A DNA stretch of 64,000 bases from a virus (lineage: Duplodnaviria; Caudoviricetes). How positions within the stretch are numbered: position 1 is the stretch's first letter; every line of letters starts with the position of its first letter. This document shows, piece by piece, positions 29,706 through 47,862 of this stretch. Made by a program: the position numbers and the translations under genes. Below the pieces are notes generated by a model. That model saw nothing but the letters and a program-made list of their open reading frames with translations, made no database searches and had not been told where the DNA came from. The stretch lies in the IMG/VR virus record IMGVR_UViG_3300037041_001930; one strand, written 5' to 3'.

Positions 29706-29709
29706 TTTA

Positions 29710-30954
29710 TTACTTGCCCCATATCTTCTCACCCAGCATGGATGCCCCGGATCCCATGAAGCCATACCCGAGTGCGCGTGCTGCGACTCCACCAAGTGTT
29801 GGCTTGGTACTAATGCGTTGAGCACCCGCGATACCATGGGGGACCCCAACGATGTTGACTACCCTGGACCCCAGACCAGACGTAAACCCCTCACGGAGTC
29901 TATGAGCCGCTTGCTCCTGCGCGGAGAGTGCCTGGTGCTTTGTGATATCCGGCGTGTTCGCATTGAAGTCAAGTTTACGTTGACCTGAATCCGCGAAGCC
30001 CACCAGTTTCTCCGCATTGGCTTGTTGAATCGCCAAGTTGGGATCACTGTTGTTACCGAAGACTCGTTTGAGGATTGACTGCTTACTGGGGTCCGGAGTC
30101 ATCGGGCCCTTCGCGGTGCCCTGATTCACGGCGTTGACCAATTCTTTGTTATCAAACAAGTCTTTGTTGTTCAGGATTGCCAGGGGGTGACTGGGATTGA
30201 CCATAGAACCCGCGGCGAACGTGTGTACCGCATTTCCGGCTTCAAGGGGAGCACGTGGCCCCTTGTCACCCTCGAGTCCTGCTGCGGTGCCCATAGCACG
30301 CAGATGGGGCTCTGCGGCTTCACCGCCCTGATTGAGTTTGTTGATGAGACCGCCAGTGGTCTGGATACCATGATCGGGGCCACCCGGCAGTTTCTTCAGC
30401 GCAGGTACAGTGCCATGGAGGACCCCAAGACCAGCACCTAAACCAAAAGCACCAGTTCCAGTGGGGGTGTTGTCCTGCAACCACGCACTCATCTTCTCAC
30501 GGGAGTCCCCGAAGATGCGACCACCAAGAGCCTTGTCGATTTCTTTGCGGTACACGTAGGCGGCGCCAAGACCAGCGGCGAGACCACCACTGGCCAAGGC
30601 CAGGGTCAACCATTCCTTGGCACCCCAGCCCTTGTCGTCCTCCTCGTCCTCGGAGTCATCCGAGACGGGATACACGGCTTCAGCGGCACACTTGATAGCT
30701 ATGTCTGCAACGTTGTACGCTGTCCTCCCCGCTGACGCATAGTCATCTGCACGCCAGTCCTTCATGTCACGTGTTTTCCAGAAATCGGGGTCGGTTACCT
30801 TACCCATAACATTGGAAACCATACCCTTACTGCTACGCCTTTTTTTGGGACTAGCGTGATTCGTTTTACTACGTGTACAGTCACCGTCTGAATCGGGGTA
30901 AACCTCTTCAGCGGCCTGCTTTGCAAAGGCGTCGTGGTCAGCATGGGTTACCAT
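29710..30954 (-). CDS. Glycine-zipper, probably membrane-associating head protein
   Basis: KQAA and KCAA motifs, acidic run, then WLTLALASGGLAAGLGAAYVY; further GAFGLGAGLG and ALGYGFMGSG segments. Confidence 0.7.
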   Translation of the reverse strand: MVTHADHDAFAKQAAEEVYPDSDGDCTRSKTNHASPKKRRSSKGMVSNVMGKVTDPDFWKTRDMKDWRADDYASAGRTAYNVADIAIKCAAEAVYPVSDDSEDEEDDKGWGAKEWLTLALASGGLAAGLGAAYVYRKEIDKALGGRIFGDSREKMSAWLQDNTPTGTGAFGLGAGLGVLHGTVPALKKLPGGPDHGIQTTGGLINKLNQGGEAAEPHLRAMGTAAGLEGDKGPRAPLEAGNAVHTFAAGSMVNPSHPLAILNNKDLFDNKELVNAVNQGTAKGPMTPDPSKQSILKRVFGNNSDPNLAIQQANAEKLVGFADSGQRKLDFNANTPDITKHQALSAQEQAAHRLREGFTSGLGSRVVNIVGVPHGIAGAQRISTKPTLGGVAARALGYGFMGSGASMLGEKIWGK

Positions 30955-33385: not shown

Positions 33386-33388
33386 GGA

Positions 33389-33592: not shown

Positions 33593-33626
33593 GGTGGATT
33601 CCTTTTCTGGGAAATTGAAGACGGGA

Positions 33627-35879: not shown

Positions 35880-35908
35880 CTGGGGGACTCCTAGCGGTGC
35901 ATCAAAGA

Positions 35909-38900
35909 TTAGCGTGGGGATCGCGGAGGGGAAGTCGGTAGCGGCGGCGTGCCATAAGACCCCGTGGTCTTCAGGGTATCCCCGAAACCAGTGGCCTTGG
36001 CGAGAGCGGGGACATAGGACGTCGAGTTGGGATCCGAGACCCTGGAGCGATGAACACTGTCCAGGAATCCTGAGGAGGTATAGAAACCGGATAGCCTGGT
36101 CTGCCAGTCATTGTCGTTGTAGACCCCGAGGACCCCCCGCTGCATCACGGGCTGGAAATCGGGTTCGTCGTCATGGGCGTCGACATCCTTGACCCCCCAC
36201 TTCTGGAGATCCCCGGCGACCTTCTTGGTAATCCGGGTTCCCGGGGTGTAGTGGAGCACGGGTTCCTCGAGGTACTTGCCGACCCCAGAGTTCGGAGCAA
36301 CCCGCTTGGTCCCTGCTCTGGCCTTGTAGGCCCCGGCGACTGAGTTGTAAGACGCGACATCATCGACGATGTGGTCACCGACCCCGTTGGGATTCGTGAC
36401 CTTGACCCAGTTGATGAGCCCGGCGACCACGGTCTCGATGTTGCGACGATGAGTCTTGATCCCTGAGTTCGTCAGAGCCTCCTGGAGCATCTCGGCGTAT
36501 CTGCGGCGGGCTTCCCCGACTCCCTTGAGCCTGACGAGCTGCTCGGGGTGCGGGGCGCCATCGCTGATGTCATCCCCGGCTTCCAGGGCATCTCCGGGCT
36601 TCACCACGGGTTCGACACCGGGGTGGAGATAGTAGTCGCGGTCATCCACGGTGACGAACTGGCCACCCTGGGGTGCCTTGCGGATCCCCTTGACGACACC
36701 ATCGACCTCGGCGAGTGGACCTGACTCCGGGAATGTTTCAGGAGATTCTATAACACGGTTGAGGTACTCGAAACCAGTACGAAGATTCTTTTTAGCCCCG
36801 ATGGCACCAGACTGGTGCTTTGAGTTACTTACGATCATGCCATTACCCAGCACGAATAGGTGGTCGGGGTGAGCTACCTCGATATCATAGACATGAAGAT
36901 GCCCGGCATCTGTCCTGTCTTCCTGACGCCACCACTCTTCGCGAGTAACGCTCTCAACTGCTGTCTTTATTCGGTCGGCCGCTCTCTCACACTTCACGCC
37001 AAATAACCGTATGCTTCTATAAAAACGAATAACATCCCGATATTTAGTAATGCAGACGTTGTAATGTCGTCTCTTTTTCTTCGAGTTGGAGCTGCTCTTT
37101 GTCGCATAGATGCCGAACCTAATGCGCAGCAACTCCATTACGCCATCGATGAGTTTCTCACTGCTAGATGCAAATGAAAACCCCATACCATCTTTTTTCC
37201 GACTAAATACTGAGCCGTCGGTGACAAACAACCCGGCCAGGAGCTCACTCACTGCCTGGTTATCCCATTGATTCACAAACGAAGGTATTTCTTTTTCATG
37301 CGCGTATTTCCCATAAAGACCCTCATCTCTGAACCACTGCAAAATTGGATTTTCAGTGACCGTGCGCATCACACGTCCCGTGATTGTATCCCTCACGATA
37401 CGCCCGTACGACCGCTGGCTCAACCTGGTCAACGCATAATAAATGGTCTGCCCCCCGCATATATGGAACTGTAAATCATGTGGTGCTAAGTAGCCATTGA
37501 GGTGGTCAATCTGAGTCTGGTCTGCACAGGAAAGATGGATCCCGGTCACTGATTCAGTGTAGCATCCGTCCCCGAGAAGCACCCCGAGCAACTTAGCTCT
37601 CCAATCGTAGATCAGATGATTTTCGCTAGATAGCCCTCCCTCACAACGTATTCCAGATGCTTTACTCATGTCTCCAATCGCGCACACGGCATCACGGTGC
37701 ATTTCCCCATACTCAGAACTATAGTGAATGTGCGTTAAAACCTTGTGGGCAGGGGTGCATGTAATGGTATGAAACGTATGGTGGCTACAGCTCTGTCTGA
37801 AACGATAAGTAACACACGGCTGTACACCATTATCAAACGTATGGGTAACCTCCACTGGAAAGGTCTTTCCGGAGATGTCTGCCCCAAGCACGAACTCACC
37901 AGGCTTTATGGTCTCTATCTGACGTAAGCTAAAGTCAGCCATGCGAACAAGCGTACCCTTGGATAGACAATTCAGGGACCCCTGCGACAACGGGGCGCCT
38001 ATGCTCTGGGCAGCCGCGATACCTATCGCATCCCCAATGTTACTGAGTTCTGTTCTGTCTCTGCGCCCTGCTGCGATACGTGAGATCCCCCCGTCTTCAG
38101 TGGGCTCTGTCATCGGGCTGTGAACCAAGATGTCCTCAACCCCATCCTCTGACAGAGATTCCAGTATGTCTGGTGTAATTCTCTCTCCGGCTTTATGTGC
38201 GCCTGCATCCCTGGCAAGCACCGCGCCGATGTTATCAGTGTCGCTGACCTTGGATGGTAGCCCAACTGGTAGCCTGGTCATGGGAGCAGTGTCTTTATTC
38301 ACGACGATACGATGCGCTGCGTTAGCCAACTTCTTGCTTAAAAACCCTGCGTCAGCTGTCGCGAGCTTGACCTCTAGCATACCTTTTCTCTGCCCATAGG
38401 TCCCTGCCCAGTATTCCACGGGATCCAGGCCTTCACTGAGGCTGTGGAGAATCGGGATCGGAACGATTTCATTGCGGTGGTCATTGACGAGACCAGATGC
38501 CCCACGAATCGCGTTGTAGTCTGACATCTTCCCACGGGCACCAGATTTAACCTGAAACCAATATGGGTTGTTCTCGGATTCACCGGACTCCTCGAGCGCT
38601 TTCTGCATCTTCTCGACCATTGGAAACATGACATCGGTGATGGCTTGCTTCTTAGCATCGGGGTCGAGGTCAGAGGTCTCAATGGCCATGACCCTGGAGC
38701 GCGCACGCTGTATCAGCTTTTTCTCTTTGTCTGTTTTCCTGAGCCCGCTGAGACTGACGCTGACACCCTCGGTGAACGCGGCATCCCTGCCGACATCGTT
38801 CATGGTCTTGATGACGTCTTTGTAGCGATCGGGGTACTTCTCGGCGATGTGCCGCAGAATCGACATCAGCTCTTTTTTGTCGATGGCTTTACCCCGGATC

Positions 38901-38959
38901 TGGAGTTCCGGGGGAAGGCTGTCATTGAGCAAAAGGGTGCCGACCGTGGTGGGGTCCAT
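35909..38959 (-). CDS. rpoC: DNA-directed RNA polymerase beta' subunit, C-terminal half, intein-containing
   Basis: TTVGTLLLN, NPYWFQVKSGARG, SLSEGLDPVEYW, bridge helix KLATADAGFLSKKL, trigger-loop GIAAAQSIGAPLSQ...SKH, GIKTHRRNIETVV; all align by eye with bacterial beta' regions E-H. Confidence 0.92.
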   Translation of the reverse strand: MDPTTVGTLLLNDSLPPELQIRGKAIDKKELMSILRHIAEKYPDRYKDVIKTMNDVGRDAAFTEGVSVSLSGLRKTDKEKKLIQRARSRVMAIETSDLDPDAKKQAITDVMFPMVEKMQKALEESGESENNPYWFQVKSGARGKMSDYNAIRGASGLVNDHRNEIVPIPILHSLSEGLDPVEYWAGTYGQRKGMLEVKLATADAGFLSKKLANAAHRIVVNKDTAPMTRLPVGLPSKVSDTDNIGAVLARDAGAHKAGERITPDILESLSEDGVEDILVHSPMTEPTEDGGISRIAAGRRDRTELSNIGDAIGIAAAQSIGAPLSQGSLNCLSKGTLVRMADFSLRQIETIKPGEFVLGADISGKTFPVEVTHTFDNGVQPCVTYRFRQSCSHHTFHTITCTPAHKVLTHIHYSSEYGEMHRDAVCAIGDMSKASGIRCEGGLSSENHLIYDWRAKLLGVLLGDGCYTESVTGIHLSCADQTQIDHLNGYLAPHDLQFHICGGQTIYYALTRLSQRSYGRIVRDTITGRVMRTVTENPILQWFRDEGLYGKYAHEKEIPSFVNQWDNQAVSELLAGLFVTDGSVFSRKKDGMGFSFASSSEKLIDGVMELLRIRFGIYATKSSSNSKKKRRHYNVCITKYRDVIRFYRSIRLFGVKCERAADRIKTAVESVTREEWWRQEDRTDAGHLHVYDIEVAHPDHLFVLGNGMIVSNSKHQSGAIGAKKNLRTGFEYLNRVIESPETFPESGPLAEVDGVVKGIRKAPQGGQFVTVDDRDYYLHPGVEPVVKPGDALEAGDDISDGAPHPEQLVRLKGVGEARRRYAEMLQEALTNSGIKTHRRNIETVVAGLINWVKVTNPNGVGDHIVDDVASYNSVAGAYKARAGTKRVAPNSGVGKYLEEPVLHYTPGTRITKKVAGDLQKWGVKDVDAHDDEPDFQPVMQRGVLGVYNDNDWQTRLSGFYTSSGFLDSVHRSRVSDPNSTSYVPALAKATGFGDTLKTTGSYGTPPLPTSPPRSPR
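36824..37969 (-). mobile_element. 382-aa intein with LAGLIDADG homing endonuclease, inserted in the beta' trigger loop
   Basis: Starts CLSKGT, block B TCTPAHKVLT, LLGVLLGDGC and LLAGLFVTDGS, block F VYDIEV..DHLFVLGNG, ends IVSN followed by Ser(+1). Removing it restores QSIGAPLSQGSLN|SKHQSG. Visibly more AT-rich than the gene's 3' part. Confidence 0.92.
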
Positions 38960-39177
38960 TATCGGGATCCAGTACGGATGACCTCAACGGGGGTCGGGGT
39001 CAAACCAAGTTTGCGAACCGTGGATGAGAAATCTGACTTCGTGGCATCGGTATGCGCAACCAACCCATTTTCCTCATACGACAGCGCCAGGGGTTGTCCG
39101 AAGTCATCGGTAACGACGACTTCGGCAACGCTGATGTGGATCTGGCGTCCATCGGAGAGTCGGATGCGAGCACGCAT
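38959..39177 (-). CDS. Small hypothetical protein coupled to the beta' C-terminal gene
   Basis: 72 aa; stop overlaps the beta'C start (TAATG). Confidence 0.65.
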   Translation of the reverse strand: MRARIRLSDGRQIHISVAEVVVTDDFGQPLALSYEENGLVAHTDATKSDFSSTVRKLGLTPTPVEVIRTGSR

Positions 39178-39178
39178 G

Positions 39179-40060
39179 TTACCTCTGCGCTAAAACGGGG
39201 GCAGTTGAACTCTTTGGTGCCGTGATCGCAGCTGTCGTGGCGCTCGCCGAGGGGTCTTCGACTGGTTGATTATTGACGGACACGATGCCTGACTTGGTAC
39301 CCTTGGCGACAGGTGGAAATGAGAGTGTCTTCTTAGGAGCACTCGCCGCAGACTTGGAGAGACCAAGTCGGGACAAGATTTCCTTGGCCATCTTCACCGT
39401 GTTGCCACCGATAGCGCTGGGGTCGAGTTGGCCACCCAGTGAACCCATGGGCCCACCGCCACCTTGGGGTTGGCCAGTGATAGCACCATTGGCCGTTGCG
39501 GCGGCGTCGGCATCCGACTTCTTGCCCTTGTTCTCTTGTTCTTTCTTCTTGCCTTCTTGTTCGAGCTCGAACTCGGCTTGAGCTTGTTCTTTGGTGCGGC
39601 CTTCACCAATGGAGGCCATGGCGCGTTCAACGATGCCCATGACGACATCGGCTTGTCCACGTGTCACGGAATCATCGGGACTACCCTTGACGTCAGGAGT
39701 TCCCGGAGCCGTGGGATCCGGGGCACCAGCGCTGGGGTCACCACCTGCGGCGGGGTCACCACCACCAATAGCACTCAGCATGTCGCCTTCGGGTGGCATG
39801 CCACCTGCAGCTGCGAGGTCACCGCCCGGTGGCATCCCACCCATGGCTGCAGGATCCCCGCCTGGAGGCATCCCACCCATGGCCATGGGATCACCGCCTG
39901 GAGGCGCCGGAGGAGCTCCTGCGGCGGCGGGGTCACCACCAGGAGGTGCACCACCAGCGGCGGCGGCGGGATTGCTGCCCGGAGGAGGCGCGGCCACAAA
40001 GGCCAGCTTCTGTGCGAACTCATTGAGGCTGCGTTGAAAGAGTCTTGCGGAGATGTCCAT
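39179..40060 (-). CDS. Low-complexity Pro/Gly/Ala/Met-rich head protein
   Basis: Repeats GGDP(A/M)A(A/M)GG(M/A)PP; KLAF, KMAK, KSAA motifs. Confidence 0.7.
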   Translation of the reverse strand: MDISARLFQRSLNEFAQKLAFVAAPPPGSNPAAAAGGAPPGGDPAAAGAPPAPPGGDPMAMGGMPPGGDPAAMGGMPPGGDLAAAGGMPPEGDMLSAIGGGDPAAGGDPSAGAPDPTAPGTPDVKGSPDDSVTRGQADVVMGIVERAMASIGEGRTKEQAQAEFELEQEGKKKEQENKGKKSDADAAATANGAITGQPQGGGGPMGSLGGQLDPSAIGGNTVKMAKEILSRLGLSKSAASAPKKTLSFPPVAKGTKSGIVSVNNQPVEDPSASATTAAITAPKSSTAPVLAQR

Positions 40061-40079
40061 GGTGACCTCTAAAGGGTGT

Positions 40080-41096
40080 TCACTTTGTGGCGGGGCCAGT
40101 CGCGGTTACCGGAGGTGTCGATTTGATTGCACCGTTTGTGGCGCTGGCCGGAGGTGCTGGGGGTGTGATCGGGACTACCGCACCGTTTGTCGCACTGCCC
40201 GGTGACTTACGTTGTAGCTGTGCCAACTCCGCTTTCAGGTCATCATTCGTCGGCAATTTAACTGGTGGAGCCCCCACGGGATCAGGTTTTAATAGCATGT
40301 TCATTGGATTTATGTTATGCGCTGCGTCGAATATCTCCGGTCCAGCTTTATTCAAGTCTACATCGTTGCCAGCCTGTGGCTGCTTTTCCGGCGCTGTCGC
40401 TGGGGTTAGTGCATCCTGCGCTTTACCAAGCCCTTCCCGAATCTGGGGGAATGCCTTGTCGACATGGGGTCCCGCGAAGTAACCCGCGGTTCCGCCGGCG
40501 AGGGCAGCGATGAGAGCATTGCGCCACTTGTTCTTCTTACTCAGGAGGGCAGCACCCCCACCGGCGAGAGCGGCACCAGTAACGGCACCGATATTGGCGG
40601 GGTCCTTGTAGAACGGGGTTGTCGGGGCGGCGTCTTGGGCAGTCTTCTTGCCAACAACCTTAGCAGGGGCCACCTTTGGTGCAGGGGCTGCTTTTGGCAA
40701 CACGGCTGGCTTCGTCGCCGAGCGCGGGGCCATCTTGGCGCCAAGTGCTTCGAGAAAATCCGGTGAAGTCCCCACTGCGTTGCCATCGAAGTCGGCACGT
40801 GATGCCGCCGCTGTTTTGGCGACATCCTTGGCACCTGCTCCAGAGAGAGCACCGAGGCCCTGGCGGATCTGGGGGACCGCTTTGTCGACATGGGGACCCG
40901 CGACATAACCAGCGGCACCCCCAGCCAAAGCAGCGATGAGGGCGTTACGCAACTTGTTCTTCTTACTCAAGAGAGCTGCGCCACCACCGGCGAGAGTGGC
41001 ACCAGCGACGGCACCGATATTGGCGGGGTCCTCATAGAAGGGGACTTCAGCAGCTGTTTTAGTCAGGCACAGGGCAAGAAGACGTGTTGGGCGCAT
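40080..41096 (-). CDS. Protein with a duplicated 64-aa glycine-zipper hairpin module
   Basis: PFY(E/K)DPANIGAV..ALAGGGAALLSKKNK.RNALIAALAGG.AGY.AGPHVDKA.PQIR.GLG twice (40851-41042 and 40425-40616), each preceded by KTA. Confidence 0.8.
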   Translation of the reverse strand: MRPTRLLALCLTKTAAEVPFYEDPANIGAVAGATLAGGGAALLSKKNKLRNALIAALAGGAAGYVAGPHVDKAVPQIRQGLGALSGAGAKDVAKTAAASRADFDGNAVGTSPDFLEALGAKMAPRSATKPAVLPKAAPAPKVAPAKVVGKKTAQDAAPTTPFYKDPANIGAVTGAALAGGGAALLSKKNKWRNALIAALAGGTAGYFAGPHVDKAFPQIREGLGKAQDALTPATAPEKQPQAGNDVDLNKAGPEIFDAAHNINPMNMLLKPDPVGAPPVKLPTNDDLKAELAQLQRKSPGSATNGAVVPITPPAPPASATNGAIKSTPPVTATGPATK

Positions 41097-41165
41097 GGTG
41101 GATTCCTACTATGGGTTATGGGATGACAGGATAACAACTGGATCGGAGACACCAAGATGGTGTGT

Positions 41166-42110
41166 TCATGGGGCAGGCTGGGCTTCCCCTTGTCTGCGGA
41201 TGGTATCGAAAACTACTTGTTGGGCCTTACGCCTCGCCGCTGCCTTGATCTTAGCCAATGCGATTTCCTGGGCTTTAATGGCAGCCGCGGAGCCGACTAT
41301 GCGCTCTACAGCTTTCACTTTTACCTGGGTCTCCGGGGATTTCCAGGCAGCTTTGGCGTCATCAACGGCCTCGCCTGCGATTTCCTTGCGGTCGTTCCAG
41401 ACATCAACGAGAGTCTTAAATATGGCTGAGTTCTTGAAATCGTCTTTATTCGAGTGCATCAGTGCCGCTGCTAAACGCTTGCCAGTATCCACTCGTGTCG
41501 GAGCAAAGACATTGCCTGCTCCAGTCATCGCGGCACGTGGGATGGTGTCACCGACGACATTGGGCAGCGTGAGCGCCTTCCGGGGCTGTGTGTAATCCTT
41601 GAATACGGGTTGTTCCTTGAATGTCCGCAGGAGCTCATCGAGGTAGACACGCCCCATCGCACGATTCACGGGGTTGGTGATATTCAGGGATCGCAAAGCA
41701 AACATGGGGAGATGCTCGGCGACCCGTGCAGGGGATACCGGCAACCCGGTTTCCTTCACGATCATGGCGGCCGCGGAATCATTGGCCCTACTGGCAGCAT
41801 CCCCGGCTGCGTATAGTCCGGTTCCCGCTGCGGTGGCCCCGAGCCCTGTGGCCAGGAACTTACCAGGTCTGGTGCCCATGCCCATGACAAGTCTGGGGAT
41901 CGAGGAGGGGCCCACCTTAGTGGTCCCCGTCCATTGCTGATACGGAGTCATCTGCCCCTTGGGGGTCATCACGGGTGTGTGGAATTTCTGCACGGCATCA
42001 GTGGCCTTGTTGACCACTGGTTTCACCGCGCTGACCCCGGACTTCGCCGCGTTCCATATCCCGCTAAGACTGGCAGCTGCGGTCTTCGAGATTACACAGG
42101 GCAGCCGCAT
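41166..42110 (-). CDS. Hypothetical head protein with N-terminal KTAA and glycine-rich helix
   Basis: MRLPCVISKTAAAS...LATGLGATAAGTGLYAAG; TAATG coupling to the RNAP gene. Confidence 0.75.
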   Translation of the reverse strand: MRLPCVISKTAAASLSGIWNAAKSGVSAVKPVVNKATDAVQKFHTPVMTPKGQMTPYQQWTGTTKVGPSSIPRLVMGMGTRPGKFLATGLGATAAGTGLYAAGDAASRANDSAAAMIVKETGLPVSPARVAEHLPMFALRSLNITNPVNRAMGRVYLDELLRTFKEQPVFKDYTQPRKALTLPNVVGDTIPRAAMTGAGNVFAPTRVDTGKRLAAALMHSNKDDFKNSAIFKTLVDVWNDRKEIAGEAVDDAKAAWKSPETQVKVKAVERIVGSAAAIKAQEIALAKIKAAARRKAQQVVFDTIRRQGEAQPAP

Positions 42111-45100
42111 TACTTGGACCCCTTACCAGAGTTCAGGATAACCACGGGGTCGGCGACACCAAGATCCCCCCTGAGGTAGGCCTGGTAGGCGTCCTCCTTG
42201 GAGGCAAAGGTGCGCGGAGTCTTGTTCTTCTTGATACTGGTGGCCAAGTAGAGCCCGGCGAGATAATCCTTGTCAGGCTTGAGATGGACGTCGAAATCAG
42301 CGGGGTGCCAGAGGTTCTTCGAGGGCATCATCTTCTCGATGACATCCCTGACGGCGTCGTGATGCGAGGGCACATGCAAATTGATCTTGTCGCCGTCGAA
42401 GTCCAGGTTCGCCCCGGGTTCGACGACCTGGGGGACCCCAATGTTGTTGCCTCTGGAGAGCACGGGCCAGGCCCCAACATAGTTGTAGCGTTGCAGTGCA
42501 GGGGCGCGATCCCAGTACACGGGGCGAGTCTTCATCTCGTTCTGGAGCTCACGGAGTGCAGCGGGCTTCTGTTCCCGTACAGCCATGACGGCCTCACGAG
42601 CACTCCACCCCGATCGGACGAGACGCCGGATCACATAGGGGCGATACACGGTCCACGCCATGTCCTTGGGGATCGAGACCTGGTCCATGTCGAGTTCGGG
42701 GTCCGGGGTGGCGACACCACGACCCACGGTATCCACGGCCTGGCCGAGCACCTTGCGCTGGAATCTCGCAAACTTGGGGGAGTCGCCGACACCAATGGCG
42801 TTCTGGAGAAGCCCCTTGACGCCCTGTTCGACATGCTTGGGGTTAATGGGGGCACCTAGACCCGCGACGGCTTTGGCAGCCGCGTACATGGCACCGTATT
42901 CCTCACCGGCATCCCCAAAGGTCTTCTGGGCCTCCGTGTAATTCTTCCCGGACTCCATGAGATCATGGTAGAGATAGTTGGCGTCATGGATGATATCCAT
43001 TTTACCAGCACGTATAACAGGCCTGAACTTCGGAGGTATAACAGGGATCTTGGAGATCATGAGGTCTCCGGGATCGACGCCTGCGGACTTCAGACCACTG
43101 AGATAGTTGAGGGCACGGACATGGACATCACGGGATGACTTCGATCCCGTCTTGACCCCCTGGATGTGCATGGCGATCTCGCGTTCAACATTGATCCCCT
43201 TGAGCGCAGTCTCAATGGCTTCAGGCCCAGTCTTGTCGCCAATCTTCTCCTGCCCACTGAGGACATCGAGGAACCTCTGCTTGGTGAGGCCAAGTATCCG
43301 GATGATGGGTTCCTCCATCACGGGATTCGGGATCTTCTGGGGCAACTCGATCTTGGTGAAGTGGCGGCCATCGGCACCACCTGTCTTCGCGAGATCGAAG
43401 AGGCCGCCATCCTTGGGCTGCATGGTCTCGAAGTCAAAAGTCTCCGATGTCGAGACTGAGTGCTGGGCCAGGGCATCGGTGTCCGCATCAGTCATCGGGG
43501 CGAGCTTGAGCCTGCCCTGGTTCTCACGCACGTTGACCCCGGCACCCTTGAGGAGGGTGAGGAAGTGACCGTGTGCACCCGACGCCTCGGGCATCACGGG
43601 ATCCATACCAAGTTTCACGGAGCGCCAGTAGTCATCGTTGCGTTGCCCACGAATCAGCTTGGCGTCTTTCAAAACATTTGTGGCACCGGCACTTAGGAGG
43701 CATTGCACGCCAAGCAGAGCAATTTTCTTACTACCTGAGCTGCCACCTTTGGCAGGCGAATCATCGGATGTGTAACCCCCGGTGTCCCGTGCGGCGAGGC
43801 CAGACTCCGCGGTGTGATGTAACCGCATGAGATGCTGGACCCCAGTGAAGATGCCCTTGATCTTCCGCCCCGTCCTGGGATCAGTGACATCATCGAGTTC
43901 ATCGACACCGTTGGCCTTGGCCTCGTTCAACGCGAACTCACCGAGGTCATCGTGGTCAAATGATTTTAGAACGTATGGTTTCCCGGTTTTCTGGGCCACC
44001 TTACCTAGCAGGGTCTCCGCGAGCACTGATGGGTTCGCTCGGGAGATGACCCCAAGGGCATTAACGATGACATCCAAGGGCTTGCCATCCGCACCCACTG
44101 GCATCTCACCATCGGGAACTATCTGGGAGACGACACCTTTGTTGCCATAGCGTGCTGAGAGCTTGGAGCCCTCAGTCATGGGCTCCACACTGGAGATCAT
44201 GACCTTGATGCCCTTGCGGGTTCTCACGACATCTGTGACCTGACCGGGGGTCGAGTGATCCCAGGTCTGCGAGGCATCAGAGAACGCTGATCTCGCCGAT
44301 GGGGTGACGACCCCACCAGGTCTCGGGGTCTTCTTGCGCACCGCGAGGAGCACGGGATCCCCGGGCTGCACAATGGTGCCCTCTTTGATCACACCGTCGT
44401 CATCGATACCCGAGATCTGCTCAGGTTTGTACTTACCCTGGAAGATCGAGGAGTAATCCGCTTTCTTCGTGGAATGAATGTTCTTATCGAGTTCAAGTTC
44501 ATGTTTGTAGGCGTGCTGTGAGGACAGCCGGCGAGCCGCGGATTCCGAGATGACAAAACCATCTTCATATGTTCTGCCGCTTCCAACCATATAACCAACA
44601 TTTAAGTTTGTACCCAGTGTTGCCTGGCCTTTGTCATCCGTGAAGTTCGATTTCGCGAGGACATCCCCGGGTTTGAAACTATCACCTTCGCGAACCAATG
44701 GTGTGTTGTGCAGACTTGTTTTACGCGCCAGGGGGTAGTTGTTATACAACTCATGTCGTTCCTTCTTGCCCCCAGCGTAGACGACATCGATGTGGTCTGG
44801 TGTCACGGCGACAACACGCCCGGGTGCCTTGGCCTTCACGGCGCCCATCCAGGTACCCATGGAGTCATGAATCGAGGTGCCGTCGGGATTCGCGGCTTGA
44901 ACTAAAGGGGCCTCAGGCGCTTGTAGCGGGAGGGCCTGTGACGTCATTCTTGCCCCCATCAGGGTTCTCTGTGACTTCGCACCTTGGGTCATCGGGACCA
45001 TATTGGTGAGCCTGGAGAACATCGAGGACCCATGGGGGAGTTCGTAGTCGACCTCTGCGGCGGGCTTCCACTTAATGTCTTCGCCATCGAGAACGCGTAC

Positions 45101-46657
45101 CATCGGTGGCAATGGCTTCCCGAGACCGTGCATGCCCACGGACGCCGAGAGCTCGGGATCCCTGGAGATGTCATCCATGGTGACCACGTGGTCCACATAC
45201 TTTCCATCATCACCAGGCAGGGGTACCTTGTAGAACTCGCGCTTCGCCGCTTTCGCGAACTCACCAGGAAACGCAATGGGCTTCTGGGAGGCCTGAAGTG
45301 CAGACAGCGTGACTTCCTCACCCTTGCGTGATCGCACCTTGAAATAAAGGCGACCATCGGAACCCTTGAGGGCGCCATCGGTGAGACGCATGTCGACACC
45401 GATGTTCTGGCCTTCAGGTGCCCGGATGGGATCAATGATACCGAAGTAGCTGGGCTGGACACCGCGTGCTGAACGCGGTACGGCTTGGTTGGACGAAATC
45501 CCGCCCTCGCCGAGGCGCGTTATGGTCTGACGGGCATCCATGATCTCCAGGGGATTCGTGTCTTCCACTGAGCTCATGAGTCCACTTTGAAACACGCCAT
45601 CCACTGCTGGGTTCAGGAGTCCTGGGGATACGTTTCCAAGATTGCCCTCACGGGTCGCCCGCCACAGCAATTTTCGCATGGCGTCACTGCCACGACTCAA
45701 GCGTTCCTCGAAGAAGTCCTCGGGGCCATGGAAACTCTGAAAGGCCTGAGAATCCCGGACATCGTCGGGGACCTCATCACGACTCCGCTTCAACATCTTC
45801 GTAGTCGCATTCAACATGGTGTCGAGATTGAAATTCTTGTACTTGGCTCCCAGCGTGGTCTCAGTGGTTTCCTCGTCGAGCTCGGCTCTTCCAAGGATCT
45901 CATGGAGTTTGTCTTTGAGGAGTTCGGTTGCCGTGTCTTGGTCACCTCGACGCCCCATCTTGGCCACGATCTTACGAGCCTCCTGGGCGTCGTGCCCACC
46001 AGGTGGGCGCCAGTTCGCCTTGAATAGATCATCCCCCCAGGCTTCCCTGATGGTTGCATCGGGGACCCCCATGGATCTCAGCAAGGGGTACAGCCGGGTT
46101 CCACTCTGGCCCACGTTCAACTTGAACACGCCTGTGGAGGGCTCGAGCTGGAGATCGAAGCCCCGACCACTGCCTGGCTTCGGATTCACCTGAGCCTTGA
46201 CGTCCCCGTTCTGCTGGCGGAGCACGTAGACCCCGGGGCGCAGGCGCTGCTGGTTCTTGGCGGCCCAAATGGTGCCCCCGCGAACAAAGATGCCACGTGG
46301 GGTCAAATGGGGGACATGCGCAAGGGTGGTCTCGGTTTCATCGACGACTGCACCGGATGCCTTGTCGACCAAGCGAACCCTGCCCTTGATGGCGCGCTGC
46401 ATGCTCTGACGAGACATCAGCGCTTTCTTCTCATCACTGAGGCTGGGGTTGTAGTCCTGGGCGTAATCGGAGTCTGCGATCTCAACCCTGTACTTCTCAT
46501 TCTCGACAGGCTTCAGGGCACGGACCCCGCGCAGTGCATTCGAGTAGATGGCGTCGCGTTGTCCGCTGACGTCATCAAAACTTCTATGGGTCACCGGGGC
46601 TACGGGACTCGGGCTACCCACGGGGGTATCAAAGGCGCCTTTGAGATCGCCTATCAT
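42110..46657 (-). CDS. rpoB: RNA polymerase beta subunit fused to the N-terminal (catalytic) half of beta'
   Basis: Beta motifs: VPHLTPRGIF..QRLRPGVY, DTNPLE..RLGEGG, QPSYFGIIDPIRAPEGQNIG, RTLMGARMTSQALPL, TYEDGFVIS, GSKLSARYGNKGVVS, LDVIVNALGVISR, GIFTG..LMRLHH. From ~43530: GGLFD, IPVIPPKFRP, RFQRKVLGQAVDTVGRGV, RAPAL, catalytic NLDFDGD (42389-42409), KDYLAGLY. Confidence 0.95.
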   Translation of the reverse strand: MIGDLKGAFDTPVGSPSPVAPVTHRSFDDVSGQRDAIYSNALRGVRALKPVENEKYRVEIADSDYAQDYNPSLSDEKKALMSRQSMQRAIKGRVRLVDKASGAVVDETETTLAHVPHLTPRGIFVRGGTIWAAKNQQRLRPGVYVLRQQNGDVKAQVNPKPGSGRGFDLQLEPSTGVFKLNVGQSGTRLYPLLRSMGVPDATIREAWGDDLFKANWRPPGGHDAQEARKIVAKMGRRGDQDTATELLKDKLHEILGRAELDEETTETTLGAKYKNFNLDTMLNATTKMLKRSRDEVPDDVRDSQAFQSFHGPEDFFEERLSRGSDAMRKLLWRATREGNLGNVSPGLLNPAVDGVFQSGLMSSVEDTNPLEIMDARQTITRLGEGGISSNQAVPRSARGVQPSYFGIIDPIRAPEGQNIGVDMRLTDGALKGSDGRLYFKVRSRKGEEVTLSALQASQKPIAFPGEFAKAAKREFYKVPLPGDDGKYVDHVVTMDDISRDPELSASVGMHGLGKPLPPMVRVLDGEDIKWKPAAEVDYELPHGSSMFSRLTNMVPMTQGAKSQRTLMGARMTSQALPLQAPEAPLVQAANPDGTSIHDSMGTWMGAVKAKAPGRVVAVTPDHIDVVYAGGKKERHELYNNYPLARKTSLHNTPLVREGDSFKPGDVLAKSNFTDDKGQATLGTNLNVGYMVGSGRTYEDGFVISESAARRLSSQHAYKHELELDKNIHSTKKADYSSIFQGKYKPEQISGIDDDGVIKEGTIVQPGDPVLLAVRKKTPRPGGVVTPSARSAFSDASQTWDHSTPGQVTDVVRTRKGIKVMISSVEPMTEGSKLSARYGNKGVVSQIVPDGEMPVGADGKPLDVIVNALGVISRANPSVLAETLLGKVAQKTGKPYVLKSFDHDDLGEFALNEAKANGVDELDDVTDPRTGRKIKGIFTGVQHLMRLHHTAESGLAARDTGGYTSDDSPAKGGSSGSKKIALLGVQCLLSAGATNVLKDAKLIRGQRNDDYWRSVKLGMDPVMPEASGAHGHFLTLLKGAGVNVRENQGRLKLAPMTDADTDALAQHSVSTSETFDFETMQPKDGGLFDLAKTGGADGRHFTKIELPQKIPNPVMEEPIIRILGLTKQRFLDVLSGQEKIGDKTGPEAIETALKGINVEREIAMHIQGVKTGSKSSRDVHVRALNYLSGLKSAGVDPGDLMISKIPVIPPKFRPVIRAGKMDIIHDANYLYHDLMESGKNYTEAQKTFGDAGEEYGAMYAAAKAVAGLGAPINPKHVEQGVKGLLQNAIGVGDSPKFARFQRKVLGQAVDTVGRGVATPDPELDMDQVSIPKDMAWTVYRPYVIRRLVRSGWSAREAVMAVREQKPAALRELQNEMKTRPVYWDRAPALQRYNYVGAWPVLSRGNNIGVPQVVEPGANLDFDGDKINLHVPSHHDAVRDVIEKMMPSKNLWHPADFDVHLKPDKDYLAGLYLATSIKKNKTPRTFASKEDAYQAYLRGDLGVADPVVILNSGKGSK

Positions 46658-46659
46658 GG

Positions 46660-47427: not shown

Positions 47428-47436
47428 GACGGGATC

Positions 47437-47859
47437 CTATTGTTCCGGGGACGCCTGTAGAGGGGCGAATCGGCGCGGGGGTCGAGGTGATCCAGGAAGT
47501 CCGTAATCGAGTGCAGACCATCGCATGAATGCTTTATACTTTCCGGTCTTCTCGGAGAAATCCACCCGATTCTCAGATAACACTGCACGGGCCTCAGCGA
47601 TGTCCTGCCAAACCCTACGATAGGCTTCCAGGTGGTCTGGGTTATCGAGATCGAATACGGCGACCTCAGGAGTATAGAACTCCTGGACTTGTTTGGAGTC
47701 GGGATCCTTGGGATGGATCAGTGGGACTTCCCCAGTGATCGGGACTTCACGTGGTGCCGTGTGGCGTACCACCCGCATGCCCTGAGGCAGGGGTACCCGG
47801 GTGCCCTGGAGGACCTGGTTGGCGTTAATGGTTCCTGGAGGCAGGGGGTTAGAGCTCAT
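47437..47859 (-). CDS. Hypothetical protein
   Basis: 140-aa ORF within the operon, with short spacing on both sides. Confidence 0.7.
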   Translation of the reverse strand: MSSNPLPPGTINANQVLQGTRVPLPQGMRVVRHTAPREVPITGEVPLIHPKDPDSKQVQEFYTPEVAVFDLDNPDHLEAYRRVWQDIAEARAVLSENRVDFSEKTGKYKAFMRWSALDYGLPGSPRPPRRFAPLQASPEQ

Positions 47860-47862
47860 CTC

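What the first reader, a model, noticed from the sequence alone, without database searches (positions are those of the whole stretch)
35909..46657. Multisubunit RNA polymerase with an unusual layout: beta+beta'N fusion and a stand-alone beta'C
Seen: one 1515-aa chain holds all of beta plus beta' up to just past the catalytic DFDGD and QD..GLY-like region. A second gene 3.1 kb downstream, after four unrelated ORFs, begins at the TTVG(R) motif and carries the bridge helix and trigger loop. Known: Helicobacter and Wolbachia fuse full beta-beta'; cyanobacteria and archaea split the largest subunit near here; phiKZ/AR9 enzymes are split differently. I do not recall this fusion-plus-split combination. 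Both double-psi barrels lie in one chain, as in single-chain crAss/YonO enzymes, but the sequence is clearly bacterial-like, so it may be an evolutionary intermediate.
Basis: partly seen in the sequence, partly recalled or inferred. Interest (0 to 1): 0.9.

Follow-up and report, generated by a model that had tools for sequence, protein, structure and literature searches.

The report
Two-chain phage RNA polymerase, fused and split
A roughly 217-kb uncultured phage encodes a bacterial-type RNA polymerase as two chains (all of beta fused to the first third of beta-prime, and the rest of beta-prime on its own with a self-splicing intein); this layout is shared by hundreds of phage contigs and by Salmonella phage Arash, whose purified virions contain both chains, yet no paper I could search describes it.

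Summary

- **The two genes.** window:42110-46657(-) encodes a 1515-aa chain. It holds a complete beta (aa 1 to about 1050) running directly into beta' up to 92 aa past DFDGD. window:35909-38959(-) starts at TTVG and carries the bridge helix, the trigger loop and the beta' C-terminus.
A 382-aa LAGLIDADG intein sits inside the trigger loop.
- **Not an artefact.** More than 100 protein clusters and at least 568 IMG/VR contigs end at the same residue. A stand-alone beta'C lies 0.6-7.4 kb downstream in 60 of 79 loci.
- **Isolates with the layout.** Salmonella phage Arash (gp206 and gp216, both abundant in the virion proteome) and Vibrio phages D69, D148 and D181.
- **Single-chain relatives.** About 30%-identical proteins of 1,960-2,590 aa are collinear across the split point.
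- **Other subunits.** The family lacks the beta' zinc-binding domain. Arash and D69 show no alpha or omega but do encode sigma factors. The window's genome also has a sigma-family gene.
- **Split site.** It lies in the post-barrel linker used by cyanobacteria and, per a review, by phiKZ-like phages, so "split differently" is wrong for beta'.
- **Interpretation.** "Evolutionary intermediate" is unsupported.

This scan met the same family earlier on other genomes. Verdict: a new variant of a known kind.

The parts
42110..46657 (-). Gene for the fused chain beta::beta'N (P0001, 1515 aa; stop codon included).
   Evidence: ORF and translation. Pfam finds Rpb2_3, Rpb2_6, Rpb1_1 and Rpb1_2 in one chain. 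PDB beta and beta' hits fall on the two halves. The family-wide alignment A3 keeps GNKG and DFDGD invariant.
43508..46657 (-). Beta portion (aa 1 to about 1050), including the beta double-psi barrel with RYGNKGV at aa 835-841.
   Evidence: T. thermophilus beta 510-908 aligns to P0001 516-902. The last residue of bacterial beta P0122 (1232) aligns to P0001 residue 1050.
42113..43507 (-). Beta'N portion (aa 1051-1515): the beta' N-terminus without the zinc-binding domain, then clamp helices, lid/rudder region and the catalytic barrel. It ends 92 aa after DFDGD.
   Evidence: E. coli beta' 145-500 aligns to P0001 1124-1474, and cyanobacterial gamma 185-550 to 1141-1500. P0001 1068-1087 matches B. 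subtilis beta' 28-47 and P0001 1138 matches residue 165, so about 67 residues, including the Cys4 zinc domain, are absent. This holds across the family.
42389..42403 (-). Catalytic DFDGD motif (aa 1419-1423).
   Evidence: Read from the translation. D1419, D1421, G1422 and D1423 are invariant in 25 family members. In relatives this position is also an intein insertion hot spot.
41166..42110 (-). Gap ORF 1 (P0126, 314 aa), specific to this lineage. Its start codon overlaps the stop codon of the fused gene.
   Evidence: No Pfam, PHROG or Atlas match. No homologue in the spacers of 37 related loci.
40080..41096 (-). Gap ORF 2 (P0125, 338 aa), with two Gly/Ala-rich membrane-helix-like repeats. Found only in the closest relatives.
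   Evidence: The only homologues are in L037 and L010.
39179..40060 (-). Gap ORF 3 (P0124, 293 aa), rich in Pro, Ala, Gly and Met. It has the same build as the roughly 240-aa proline/alanine-rich protein that follows the fused gene in most relatives.
   Evidence: The spacer protein family is found in 25 loci by HMM. The likeness to P0124 rests on architecture and composition only; it did not reach HMM significance.
38959..39177 (-). Small conserved gene (P0123, 72 aa). Its stop codon overlaps the beta'C start codon by one base. It is a candidate extra subunit or assembly factor.
   Evidence: Homologues sit downstream of the fused gene on the same strand, directly before beta'C in the loci whose coordinates I compared, in 49 IMG/VR loci. 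AlphaFold gives a confident model of five strands plus a helix, pLDDT 84.6. No fold match was found.
35909..38959 (-). Gene for beta'C (P0002, 1016-aa precursor; 634 aa after splicing).
   Evidence: It aligns with the intein-free homologues of Arash gp216 and D69, and with the C-terminal third of single-chain P0115. The intein-free allele P0134 is 634 aa and 88% identical.
37970..38959 (-). N-extein (aa 1-330): TTVG start, secondary-channel rim, bridge helix (about aa 185-215) and the first trigger-loop helix, ending ...AAQSIGAPLSQGSLN.
   Evidence: plus the sequence itself.
36824..37969 (-). Intein (aa 331-712, 382 aa) with a LAGLIDADG homing endonuclease, inserted three residues before the trigger-loop histidine.
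   Evidence: Pfam LAGLIDADG_3, E 4e-15. It forms a clean 382-column insertion relative to three intein-free homologues. The sequence shows Cys1, the TPAH block B, two LAGLIDADG motifs, a terminal Asn and a +1 Ser. The same VSN|SKH junction is kept in six homologous inteins. Site 330 is occupied in at least 54 clusters.
35909..36823 (-). C-extein (aa 713-1016) plus stop codon: the trigger-loop His (SKH) and the beta' C-terminal regions. The four Cys of the second zinc site are lost.
   Evidence: Arash, D69 and P0115 keep C..C..CQKC where the window has no Cys.
54290..56161 (-). Portal protein homologue, upstream in the same co-oriented block. It places the polymerase genes in the virion module.
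   Evidence: tblastn to Arash gp204 (annotated portal), E 6e-56, and to D69, E 2e-57. Weak PHROG portal hit.
28305..29849 (-). Prohead-protease-like virion protein downstream of the polymerase genes.
   Evidence: PHROG head maturation protease, E 2e-8. Homologous to Arash gp222, a virion protein (PMC10585845).

Best explanation
This is the transcription core of a large uncultured tailed phage (contig about 217 kb). It is a bacterial-type multisubunit RNA polymerase made of two chains.

**Chain 1** is a full beta whose last residues run straight into beta' residue about 18. It continues through the catalytic DFDGD barrel and stops in the linker behind that barrel.

**Chain 2** starts at the next conserved motif (TTVG). 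It supplies the bridge helix, the trigger loop and the C-terminal clamp and jaw parts. It is made as a precursor and must first lose a 382-aa intein from its trigger loop by protein splicing.

**Shown here**
- The gene structure and the integrity of all catalytic motifs.
- The exact collinearity with single-chain relatives.
- The conservation of both the fusion junction and the chain end across hundreds of contigs.
- The position of the genes between portal and head-maturation genes.

**Inferred**
1. The enzyme is packaged in the capsid and injected to transcribe early genes. Its homologues gp206 and gp216 were the most-detected and fifth most-detected proteins in the proteome of purified Arash virions.
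2. It works with phage sigma factors, not the sigma-less mode of phiKZ-like enzymes. A sigma70-family gene lies in this genome's baseplate operon, and Arash and D69 also encode sigma factors.
3. It needs no alpha dimer or omega. The covalent beta-beta' link stands in for the assembly platform and fixes 1:1 stoichiometry for packaging.
4. The split sits in a permissive inter-domain linker where two genes, later four, came to lie. It is a tolerated gene-structure state and not a functional necessity.
For: **Layout and motifs:**

**A clean fission point.** Single-chain P0115 residues 38-1490 match P0001 57-1507, and residues 1495-2033 match intein-less P0002 4-481.

**Family-wide conservation**
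- The chain end is conserved.
- The fusion junction is conserved, and so is the loss of the zinc domain.
- Beta'C lies on the same strand 0.57-7.4 kb downstream in 60 of 79 IMG/VR loci, most often about 1 kb, and is never contiguous.

**The gap is not an intron.** Rfam finds nothing in window 33000-49000. In contrast, the interruption in Vibrio phage D181 is a group I intron (100.7 bits).

**Virion context**
- The portal, the 750-aa protein, the protease-like protein and the 312-aa protein are syntenic with Arash and D69.
- In the Arash virion proteome, gp206 has 3516 spectra, gp216 has 1210, and sigma gp10 has 467 (PMC10585845).

**Sigma**
- Sigma70_r2 hits occur in Arash and D69.
- A profile built from the window genome's protein hits RpoS at E 3e-9, and also SigB, SigA and FliA.

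**No alpha or omega.** PF01000, PF01193 and PF01192 are absent from Arash and D69, while the controls were positive in 14 of 14 genomes.

**Intein**
- All splicing blocks are present.
- The junction is conserved among homologues.
- Presence varies among close relatives: P0134 has none, and P0131 and P0132 carry one at the bridge-helix site.

**From established knowledge.** Natural (Helicobacter, Wolbachia) and engineered E. coli beta-beta' fusions are active. This fits the beta C-terminus lying next to the beta' N-terminus.
Against: - No expression, splicing or activity data exist for this phage.
- Virion packaging is transferred from a relative that is only 30% identical, and from gene order.
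- Only about 82 kb of the roughly 217-kb genome could be read, so a divergent alpha, an omega or a second polymerase set cannot be excluded here. Pfam models could also miss very divergent alpha-like proteins in Arash and D69.
- Host alpha or omega could be recruited.
- The sigma gene shows no pairwise similarity to the Arash or D69 sigma factors. Its link to this polymerase rests on co-occurrence only.
- The intein has Ser, not His, before its terminal Asn.
- The window's clade has lost both zinc sites, which in cellular enzymes help folding.
Confidence: 0.75

Rival explanations
1. The layout is an artefact. A frameshift, a lost stop codon or a chimeric assembly joined rpoB to rpoC and truncated rpoC.
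For: The window comes from a metagenome assembly. rpoB and rpoC are adjacent in bacteria, so a single error could fuse them.
Against: The junction sequence is conserved in every family member examined, including the isolates Arash and D69. The chain end is the same in about 105 clusters and at least 568 IMG/VR contigs. P0001 occurs letter for letter on two independently assembled contigs, one from JGI and one from Logan. Composition is uniform across the region.
Confidence: 0.01
2. The two genes give one chain after all. The 3.1-kb gap would be removed at the RNA or protein level (a large intron, trans-splicing, a split intein or translational bypass), producing a single beta::beta' like the roughly 2,100-aa relatives.
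For: Single-chain relatives are collinear to within about five residues of the break. The family is full of inteins, and D181 carries a group I intron in the same gene.
Against: Rfam finds no intron family in window 33000-49000. The gap holds real genes, one of which is conserved in 49 loci. P0001 ends ...GKGSK and P0002 starts MDPTTVG, with no split-intein halves. In Arash, nine genes on both strands separate the two parts. The gap length ranges from 0.57 to 7.4 kb.
Confidence: 0.03
3. The enzyme is not packaged. It is an ordinary intracellular middle/late polymerase whose genes merely lie in the late operon, and the Arash virion signal reflects abundant protein that co-purified.
For: The Arash authors themselves raise this possibility (PMC10585845). 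Several metabolic enzymes were also detected in their virion preparation. The window offers no direct evidence of packaging.
Against: gp206 was the most-detected protein of all in the preparation, above the major capsid protein, and gp216 was fifth. The genes sit next to the portal gene in three deep clades of the family. Only one polymerase set was found in Arash. A phage that relied on this polymerase alone and did not bring it in the virion would still need the host enzyme to express it first.
Confidence: 0.15
4. The layout is an evolutionary intermediate between multisubunit cellular polymerases and single-chain two-barrel enzymes such as crAss gp66 or YonO.
For: Both double-psi barrels lie in one chain. 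Fully single-chain relatives exist in the family.
Against: The family has the full complement of bacterial beta and beta' regions and matches bacterial subunits at E 1e-57 and 1e-34. The mReC authors report that crAss enzymes show no recognisable similarity to the cellular beta and beta' models (COG0085 and COG0086) (PMC7481178). The tree gives three deep clades in an unresolved trichotomy, so even the order of fusion and split within the family is unknown. Adjacent rpoB-rpoC genes fuse easily, as in Helicobacter and Wolbachia.
Confidence: 0.03

Closest known systems
Salmonella phage Arash gp206 and gp216 (OQ632216; Yousefi et al. 2023, PMC10585845), and the homologues in Vibrio phages D69, D148 and D181 (OZ195729, OZ196545, OZ196140).
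   Same: The layout is the same: a fused beta::beta'N chain of about 1525 aa and a beta'C of about 606 aa. The portal gene lies just upstream. The fusion junction is the same, the zinc-binding domain is missing in the same way, and the chain ends at the same point. In Arash both chains are abundant in the virion proteome.
   Different: Identity is only about 30%, and they form a separate deep clade. Beta'C has no intein. The second zinc site is kept. The spacer differs: nine genes on both strands in Arash, two small ORFs in D69. No homologue of the 72-aa gene was found. The published annotation calls them simply beta and beta' and does not note the fusion or the split.
Natural beta::beta' fusions of Helicobacter and Wolbachia (Zakharova et al. 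1998, cited in PMC3821669), and the engineered E. coli fusion (from my own knowledge).
   Same: The beta C-terminus is joined covalently to the beta' N-terminus in one open reading frame.
   Different: Those are complete fusions of about 2,900 aa with a linker, in cellular enzymes that have alpha, omega and both zinc sites. Here the chain stops after the catalytic barrel, and the junction has no linker and no zinc domain. Complete fusions of about 2,000-2,150 aa do exist in this phage family, as a separate clade.
Cyanobacterial and plastid split beta' (gamma/RpoC1 plus beta'/RpoC2; PDB 8syi, 8h3v, 8gzg).
   Same: Beta' is divided in the linker just after the catalytic barrel. P0001 aligns to gamma 185-550, and P0002 residue 21 aligns to RpoC2 residues 3-10.
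   Different: The break lies about 18-20 aligned residues earlier: TTVG belongs to the C-terminal chain here but to gamma in cyanobacteria. Beta is not fused to gamma there. The two cyanobacterial genes are adjacent. There is no large SI3 insertion in the trigger loop here; instead an intein sits three residues from the catalytic His.
Virion and non-virion multisubunit polymerases of phiKZ- and AR9-like jumbo phages (Sokolova et al. 2020, PMC7598289).
   Same: They are phage-encoded relatives of beta and beta' with no alpha or omega. One set is packaged in the virion. Beta' is split after the barrel at a site said to coincide with the cyanobacterial one.
   Different: Their beta is cut into two or three pieces and is never fused to beta'N. 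They have two paralogous sets. They have no sigma factor and use a different promoter-recognition subunit. Their sequences are much more divergent from bacterial ones. Here none appeared among the 60 best PDB hits listed for P0001 or P0002; 172 and 77 distinct sequences matched in all.
mReC, the multisubunit-RNAP-encoding Caudovirales (Weinheimer & Aylward 2020, PMC7481178).
   Same: They are uncultured tailed phages whose beta and beta' genes are recognisably cellular-like.
   Different: Their tables list separate beta genes (about 1000 or about 1365 aa) and beta' genes (about 905 or about 1005 aa), often as two sets per contig. The main text uses 'fused'/'fusion' only for crAss phage, and 'split' does not occur. 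None of the listed pairs has the 1450-1550 plus 620-640 aa signature.
Single-chain two-barrel polymerases (crAss-like phage gp66, YonO, P23-45 tape-measure fusion).
   Same: Both catalytic barrels lie in one polypeptide, and the enzyme is delivered by the virion.
   Different: Those enzymes are minimal and highly divergent, lacking most beta and beta' regions. This one retains essentially the full bacterial set and still needs a second chain for the bridge helix and trigger loop.

Membership tests
Bacterial-type multisubunit RNA polymerase core (beta/beta') | Beta double-psi barrel with the conserved basic residues (GNKG). | tested here: met
   Pfam Rpb2_6, E 2e-40. RYGNKGV lies at aa 835-841. 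G838 and K840 are invariant in A3.
Bacterial-type multisubunit RNA polymerase core (beta/beta') | Beta' barrel with the metal-binding motif NADFDGD. | tested here: met
   NLDFDGD ends at aa 1423. Pfam Rpb1_2. The motif is invariant in A3.
Bacterial-type multisubunit RNA polymerase core (beta/beta') | Bridge helix and trigger loop. | tested here: met
   Pfam Rpb1_5, E 4e-16. P0002 123-335 aligns to E. coli beta' 713-938. The trigger loop is interrupted by the intein and is restored only after splicing.
Bacterial-type multisubunit RNA polymerase core (beta/beta') | Alpha dimer assembly platform and omega subunit. | tested here: not met
   PF01000, PF01193 and PF01192 give no hit at E<=1 in the complete genomes of Arash and D69, with controls positive in 14 of 14 genomes. 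No Pfam hit among the window's neighbouring ORFs. The rest of the window's own genome could not be searched.
Bacterial-type multisubunit RNA polymerase core (beta/beta') | Two beta' zinc sites: the N-terminal Cys4 domain and the Cys4 near the bridge helix. | tested here: not met
   The N-terminal zinc domain is deleted across the family. The second site's four Cys are absent in P0002 but kept in Arash, D69 and P0115.
Bacterial-type multisubunit RNA polymerase core (beta/beta') | A sigma70-family initiation factor is available. | tested here: met
   The gene L008:16764-17354 lies about 13 kb beyond the window's start. Its family profile hits RpoS at E 2.9e-9, plus SigB, SigA and FliA. Arash and D69 have Sigma70_r2 hits above the curated cut-off. 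Physical use by this polymerase was not tested.
Complete beta::beta' fusion (Helicobacter/Wolbachia type) | One reading frame holds all of beta and all of beta'. | tested here: not met
   P0001 stops 92 aa after DFDGD, and the remainder is a separate gene 3.15 kb away. The feature is met by relatives P0109, P0110, P0112-P0116 and P0118.
Cyanobacterial-type split beta' (gamma plus beta') | Beta' is divided after the catalytic barrel into two adjacent genes, with beta separate. | tested here: inconclusive
   The linker is the same, but the break is about 18-20 aligned residues earlier. Beta is fused to the N-terminal part, and the genes are not adjacent.
phiKZ/AR9-like jumbo-phage multisubunit polymerases | Beta is split into two or three polypeptides; there are two paralogous sets; there is no sigma factor. 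| tested here: not met
   Beta is unsplit and fused. tblastn finds a single place in Arash. Sigma genes are present. The features of the phiKZ-like enzymes are taken from PMC7598289 and PMC7824862.
Intein (HINT domain with LAGLIDADG homing endonuclease) | Cys/Ser at position 1, a TxxH block B, a C-terminal Asn, and a +1 Cys/Ser/Thr. | tested here: met
   The sequence shows C331, T-P-A-H, N712 and S713. The insertion is clean relative to three intein-free homologues.
Intein (HINT domain with LAGLIDADG homing endonuclease) | Penultimate His before the terminal Asn. | tested here: not met
   The junction reads VSN|S. The same Ser is kept in six homologous inteins at this site. This argues for a lineage trait and against decay. 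Splicing itself was not tested.
Intein (HINT domain with LAGLIDADG homing endonuclease) | Two LAGLIDADG motifs. | tested here: met
   LLGVLLGDG and LLAGLFVTDG are present. Pfam LAGLIDADG_3, E 4e-15.
Virion-packaged phage RNA polymerase | The protein is physically present in purified virions. | not testable with these tools
   This is shown only for the Arash homologues, by mass spectrometry (PMC10585845). For the window it is inferred from synteny with portal and head genes.

The most novel reading that the evidence does not exclude
The conserved four-gene unit encodes a self-sufficient, injectable transcription machine. The unit is beta::beta'N, then a proline/alanine-rich protein, then a roughly 75-aa beta-rich protein, then beta'C. 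In this reading the covalent beta-beta' tether and the small protein, which is translationally coupled to beta'C, together replace the universal alpha2/omega assembly platform and the zinc sites. That would make it the simplest sigma-dependent cellular-type RNA polymerase known, with the small protein as a new kind of polymerase subunit.
Probability: 0.15. Interest if true: 0.8.

Novelty: new variant of a known kind. Interest (0 to 1): 0.6.

Why it matters
- **It is the standard form of a widespread group.** The layout belongs to a very large, almost wholly uncultured phage group (at least 568 IMG/VR contigs, many of them 180-225 kb), not to one odd gene. That group's transcription strategy has not been studied.
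- **It bears on minimal polymerase assembly.** The enzyme appears to lack alpha, omega and the N-terminal zinc domain yet keeps sigma. That combination makes a basic question testable: what is minimally needed to assemble and aim a cellular-type RNA polymerase?
- **A laboratory system exists.** Arash grows on Salmonella Typhimurium ATCC 14028.
- **It bears on how subunit boundaries evolve.** Complete fusions and fused-plus-split forms coexist in one family. The post-barrel linker is also used as a break point in cyanobacteria, plastids and phiKZ-like phages, so it looks like a recurrently permissive fission site.
- **It is a rich source of inteins.** Insertions recur at catalytic motifs in both chains. 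Individual family proteins reach 3,038 aa against about 1,500 without inserts.

Tried and rejected
- **Near-identical DNA search.** A search of the finding against 50,697 phage records found nothing.
- **Neighbouring ORFs.** PHROGs and Pfam gave no function for most of them. Atlas look-ups for the 255-aa upstream ORF and for P0126 gave only sub-threshold viral hypothetical proteins.
- **The window's whole genome.** It is not held. I walked 17 kb beyond the window's start through an identical Logan contig but could not read the rest.
- **Sigma comparisons.** Pairwise BLAST of the window-genome sigma against the D69 sigma and Arash gp196 found no similarity. Only the profile search placed it in the sigma family.
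- **Candidate promoter motif.** The motif TTGAC-N5-GTAAA, reported elsewhere in this genome, is not enriched in the window: 2 matches against 1.6 expected. Consensus promoter and terminator scans of 33-50 kb were at or below chance.
- **The small gene P0123.**
  - BLAST found no similarity to the small ORFs before beta'C in Arash or D69, and an HMM search found no homologue in those loci or in the single-chain locus L003.
  - Foldseek against the PDB gave no match at E<=0.001.
  - A complex prediction of P0123 with the intein-free beta'C P0134 returned no verdict. This is not evidence either way.
- **Direction of evolution.** The rooted tree left the three deep clades unresolved. I therefore make no claim about whether the split or the fusion came first.
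- **mReC supplementary tables.** I checked them for this layout and found none.
- **Alteromonas podovirus paper.** PMC3821669 surfaced in a search for fused polymerases, but it concerns a split N4-type single-subunit enzyme and is irrelevant.

Full report
**1. What is in the sequence**

All sizeable genes of the window lie on the minus strand, and composition is even at about 58% G+C.

window:42110-46657(-) encodes P0001, 1515 aa.
- Pfam places Rpb2_3 (aa 364-426), Rpb2_6 (648-963, E 2e-40), Rpb1_1 (1186-1239) and Rpb1_2 (1305-1369) in this one chain.
- Against solved structures, aa 516-1003 match bacterial beta. T. thermophilus beta 510-908 aligns to aa 516-902, and the best E-value is 9e-57.
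- aa 1124-1508 match beta': E. coli 145-500, cyanobacterial gamma 185-550.
- The last residue of a bacterial beta (P0122, residue 1232) aligns to P0001 residue 1050.
- P0001 1068-1087 (VSTSETFDFETMQPKDGGLF) already corresponds to B. subtilis beta' 28-47. The two subunits are therefore joined without a linker.
- About 67 residues that hold the Cys4 zinc-binding domain in cellular beta' are missing.

window:35909-38959(-) encodes P0002, 1016 aa.
- It starts MDPTTVG.
- It carries Rpb1_5.
- It aligns to M. tuberculosis beta' 665-1019 and to E. coli beta' 713-938.

Four ORFs of 314, 338, 293 and 72 aa fill the 3,150 nt between the two genes.

**2.

P0002 also hits LAGLIDADG_3 (E 4e-15). Three intein-free homologues were aligned with it: Arash gp216, the D69 homologue, and the C-terminal third of single-chain P0115. 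In that alignment P0002 has one clean 382-residue insertion, aa 331-712.

The intein has:
- Cys1;
- a TPAH block B;
- two LAGLIDADG motifs;
- a terminal Asn;
- a +1 Ser.

It sits at ...SQGSLN|intein|SKHQSG, three residues before the trigger-loop histidine.

The residue before the terminal Asn is Ser and not the usual His. The same VSN|SKH junction is kept in six homologous inteins, so this looks like a trait of the lineage and not decay.

The mature beta'C is 634 aa, exactly the length of the natural intein-free allele P0134 (88% identical, on a 216-kb contig).

**3. Not an artefact, and not rare**

A word-indexed search found more than 115 clusters at 90% identity with the same Pfam content.
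- About 105 of them end within a few residues of P0001 position 1507-1515.
- The longer ones (1,800-2,585 aa) carry inserts of roughly 140-550 residues, many matching Pfam intein or homing-endonuclease families. They recur near P0001 positions 215-270, 365, 417, 572, 647, 703-712, 834 (just before RYGNKG), 874, 976, 1300 and 1423 (directly after DFDGD).

An exhaustive HMMER search with aa 850-1515 gave 150 listed representatives at 50% identity. All scored E<1e-150, and nearly all end at the protein's C-terminus. Some reach 3,038 aa.

A scan of IMG/VR found at least 568 contigs, many of 180-225 kb.
- In 60 of 79 fetched loci, beta'C lies on the same strand 0.57-7.4 kb downstream.
- The most common distance is about 1 kb (35 loci).
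- It is never contiguous.

P0001 itself is on record letter for letter on two contigs, the longest 217,040 bp.

Beta'C homologues number more than 290 clusters. Of the 119 examined:
- 44 are intein-free;
- at least 54 carry an intein at the trigger-loop site;
- 23 carry one at a bridge-helix site (extein position about 200-208).

**4. Named relatives**

tblastn against deposited phages found four full-length matches at about 30% identity: Salmonella phage Arash and Vibrio phages D69, D148 and D181.
- Arash gp206 (1525 aa, annotated "subunit beta") lies two genes after the portal gene.
- Arash gp216 (606 aa) lies nine genes further on.
- D69 has the same pair separated by two small ORFs.
- In D181 the fused gene is annotated in two pieces around a homing endonuclease. 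Rfam shows this is a group I intron (RF00028, 100.7 bits), not a true split.

The Arash paper reports gp206 as the most-detected protein in the virion proteome, with 3516 spectra. It gives gp216 1210 spectra and a sigma factor, gp10, 467 (PMC10585845). It calls the two proteins beta and beta' and does not remark on the fusion or the split.

**5. Context in the window**

- The 623-aa product of 54290-56161 is homologous to the Arash portal (E 6e-56).
- The 750-aa protein after beta'C matches Arash gp218, a virion protein.
- The 514-aa product of 28305-29849 matches Arash gp222 and a PHROG head-maturation protease.
- The 312-aa product of 24671-25609 matches a D69 protein in the same order.

The polymerase genes therefore sit inside a conserved block running from portal to head genes. 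No Rfam family, and no promoter or terminator signal beyond chance, interrupts 33-50 kb. The ORFs overlap or nearly abut. This fits one late operon.

**6. Single-chain relatives and the nature of the split**

Eight clusters at 30-33% identity (1,963-2,586 aa) also carry Rpb1_5 and Rpb1_4.

In P0115 (2145 aa, on a 189-kb contig next to a portal homologue):
- residues 38-1490 align to P0001 57-1507;
- residues 1495-2033 align to intein-less P0002 4-481.

The window's two genes are therefore one chain cut at a single point.

The fusion junction and the missing zinc domain are shared by all three deep clades. This fits a single ancestral fusion.

A tree of 38 family members rooted on bacterial beta gives three well-supported clades:
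- Arash plus D69 (split);
- six single-chain forms (support 99);
- thirty window-type split forms (support 100).

They sit in an unresolved trichotomy. Whether the split or the full fusion came first cannot be told from these data.

**7. Where the split lies relative to known splits**

- Cyanobacterial gamma (624 aa) aligns up to about residue 550 with P0001 about 1500.
- P0002 residue 21 aligns with RpoC2 residues 3-10.

The phage break is therefore in the same post-barrel linker, about 18-20 aligned residues upstream. TTVG belongs to the C-terminal chain here.

The Sokolova review states that both jumbo-phage polymerases share a beta' split after the barrel that coincides with the cyanobacterial one (PMC7598289). 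There beta is cut into pieces; here it is intact and fused.

**8. Other subunits**

- **Alpha and omega.** The complete genomes of Arash and D69 gave no hit to either alpha model or to omega, even at E<=1. All 14 control genomes were positive.
- **Sigma in the relatives.** Both genomes have sigma70 region 2 hits above the curated cut-off.
- **Sigma in the window's genome.**
  - A gene about 13 kb beyond the window's start, in the baseplate operon, has weak Sigma70_r3 and r4 hits.
  - It has homologues that JGI names sigma subunits.
  - Its family profile hits RpoS at E 2.9e-9, plus SigB, SigA and FliA.
- **Zinc sites.** In the window's clade the second beta' zinc site is also lost. Arash, D69 and P0115 keep it.

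**9. The spacer genes**

- **Conserved pair.**
  - The 72-aa ORF (P0123) has a stop codon that overlaps the beta'C start codon by one base. An HMM of the family finds it in 49 IMG/VR loci, downstream of the fused gene on the same strand. It lies directly before beta'C in the loci whose coordinates I compared. It was not found in Arash, D69 or the single-chain locus.
  - AlphaFold gives a confident small fold of five strands and a helix (pLDDT 84.6), with no structural match. A complex prediction with beta'C gave no verdict.
  - Most relatives also have a roughly 240-aa proline/alanine-rich protein right after the fused gene. P0124 has the same build.
- **Lineage-specific insertions.** P0126 has no homologue in the related spacers, and P0125 occurs only in the closest relatives. 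They look like later insertions.

The conserved unit is thus fused gene, proline/alanine-rich protein, small protein, beta'C.

**10. How it most likely works**

- **Shown.** Two chains together contain every catalytic element of a bacterial core enzyme.
- **Inferred, about 0.8.** The enzyme is packaged and injected, as in Arash.
- **Inferred, about 0.6.** It uses phage sigma factors.
- **Inferred, about 0.5.** The covalent beta-beta' link substitutes for the alpha platform and secures equal amounts of both barrels. From established knowledge, natural and engineered beta-beta' fusions are active.

Beta'C must splice before the trigger loop can function.

The split appears to be a tolerated state at a permissive linker. 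Mobile and small genes accumulate there in a family that also collects inteins and introns.

**11. Literature and novelty**

I found no description of this layout in any of the following:
- the Arash paper;
- the jumbo-phage polymerase review;
- the Iyer et al. jumbo-phage survey;
- the 2026 jumbo-phage review;
- the mReC paper and its tables, which list separate beta and beta' genes of other sizes.

Several full-text searches also found nothing. The library is incomplete, so this is absence of evidence only.

Within this scan the same family has been reported before on other genomes:
- e1-370420 and e1-3435475 (single-chain forms);
- e1-1940430 (a betaC-beta'N fusion plus beta'C, with four inteins).

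Those reports have the same closest relatives.

I rate the finding a new variant of a known kind. It is of solid but not extreme interest. Its main value is that it is the standard enzyme of a very large phage group and that a culturable member exists.

Noticed in passing
Family proteins P0003-P0120 and P0265-P0396, mapped on window 42110-46657: The fused gene is a hot spot for inserts of about 140-550 residues, many of them with Pfam intein or homing-endonuclease hits. They recur at about eleven sites that coincide with conserved motifs: PEGQ|NIG, before RYGNKG, directly after DFDGD, and others. Some genes carry three or four, and family proteins reach 3,038 aa.
   Followed up: partly
L009:7488-7768 (Vibrio phage D181, OZ196140): A group I intron (Rfam RF00028, 100.7 bits) with a homing-endonuclease ORF interrupts the fused polymerase gene. 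The record annotates the two exons as separate hypothetical proteins. The sister phage D69 lacks the intron.
   Followed up: yes
window 38959-39177 and 49 IMG/VR loci (alignment A4): A family of 70-90-aa beta-rich proteins is encoded downstream of the fused gene, directly before beta'C in the loci compared, throughout the window's clade. The fold is confidently predicted but matches no solved structure.
   Followed up: partly
window 39179-40060; spacer ORFs of L013, L014, L019, L023, L043 and about 20 more: A family of proline/alanine/glycine/methionine-rich proteins (repeats such as PPxDPAAMG, plus one conserved helix, KPEQMMQMLDYRLYNMQQQLTAIMNAMG) follows the fused gene in most relatives. 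Its function is unknown.
   Followed up: partly
window 48588-54293: A 1901-aa ORF lies between the portal gene and the polymerase genes. It has no PHROG hit and no counterpart in the Arash or D69 loci.
   Followed up: no
L008:16680-17354 (same genome, about 13 kb before the window's start): A short sigma70-family factor (regions 2.x, 3 and 4) is encoded inside the baseplate operon. The called start codon probably truncates region 2, because the upstream in-frame residues look like region 2.1.
   Followed up: partly
window 35909-38959 compared with L001, L002 and P0115: The four cysteines of the second beta' zinc site are replaced in the window's protein but kept in Arash, D69 and the single-chain clade. 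The loss is therefore specific to this clade, unlike the family-wide loss of the N-terminal zinc domain.
   Followed up: partly
P0136 (beta'C homologue, 55% identical): NCBI carries this protein as 'LAGLIDADG family homing endonuclease [Thermoanaerobaculaceae bacterium]' from a metagenome-assembled genome. It is probably a phage contig binned with an acidobacterial genome. This is a weak hint at the host range and an example of mis-annotation.
   Followed up: no
window 40080-41096 and 41166-42110 (N-termini); window 46657 downward: P0125 and P0126 both carry K-T-A-A within their first 15 residues, and P0001 has L-K-G-A at residues 5-8. This matches the K-x-A motif that other notes of this scan propose as a maturation-cleavage signal.
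   Followed up: no
window 12237-16148: A 1303-aa collagen-repeat tail-fibre protein gives strong PHROG tail-fibre hits (E 8e-62).
   Followed up: no
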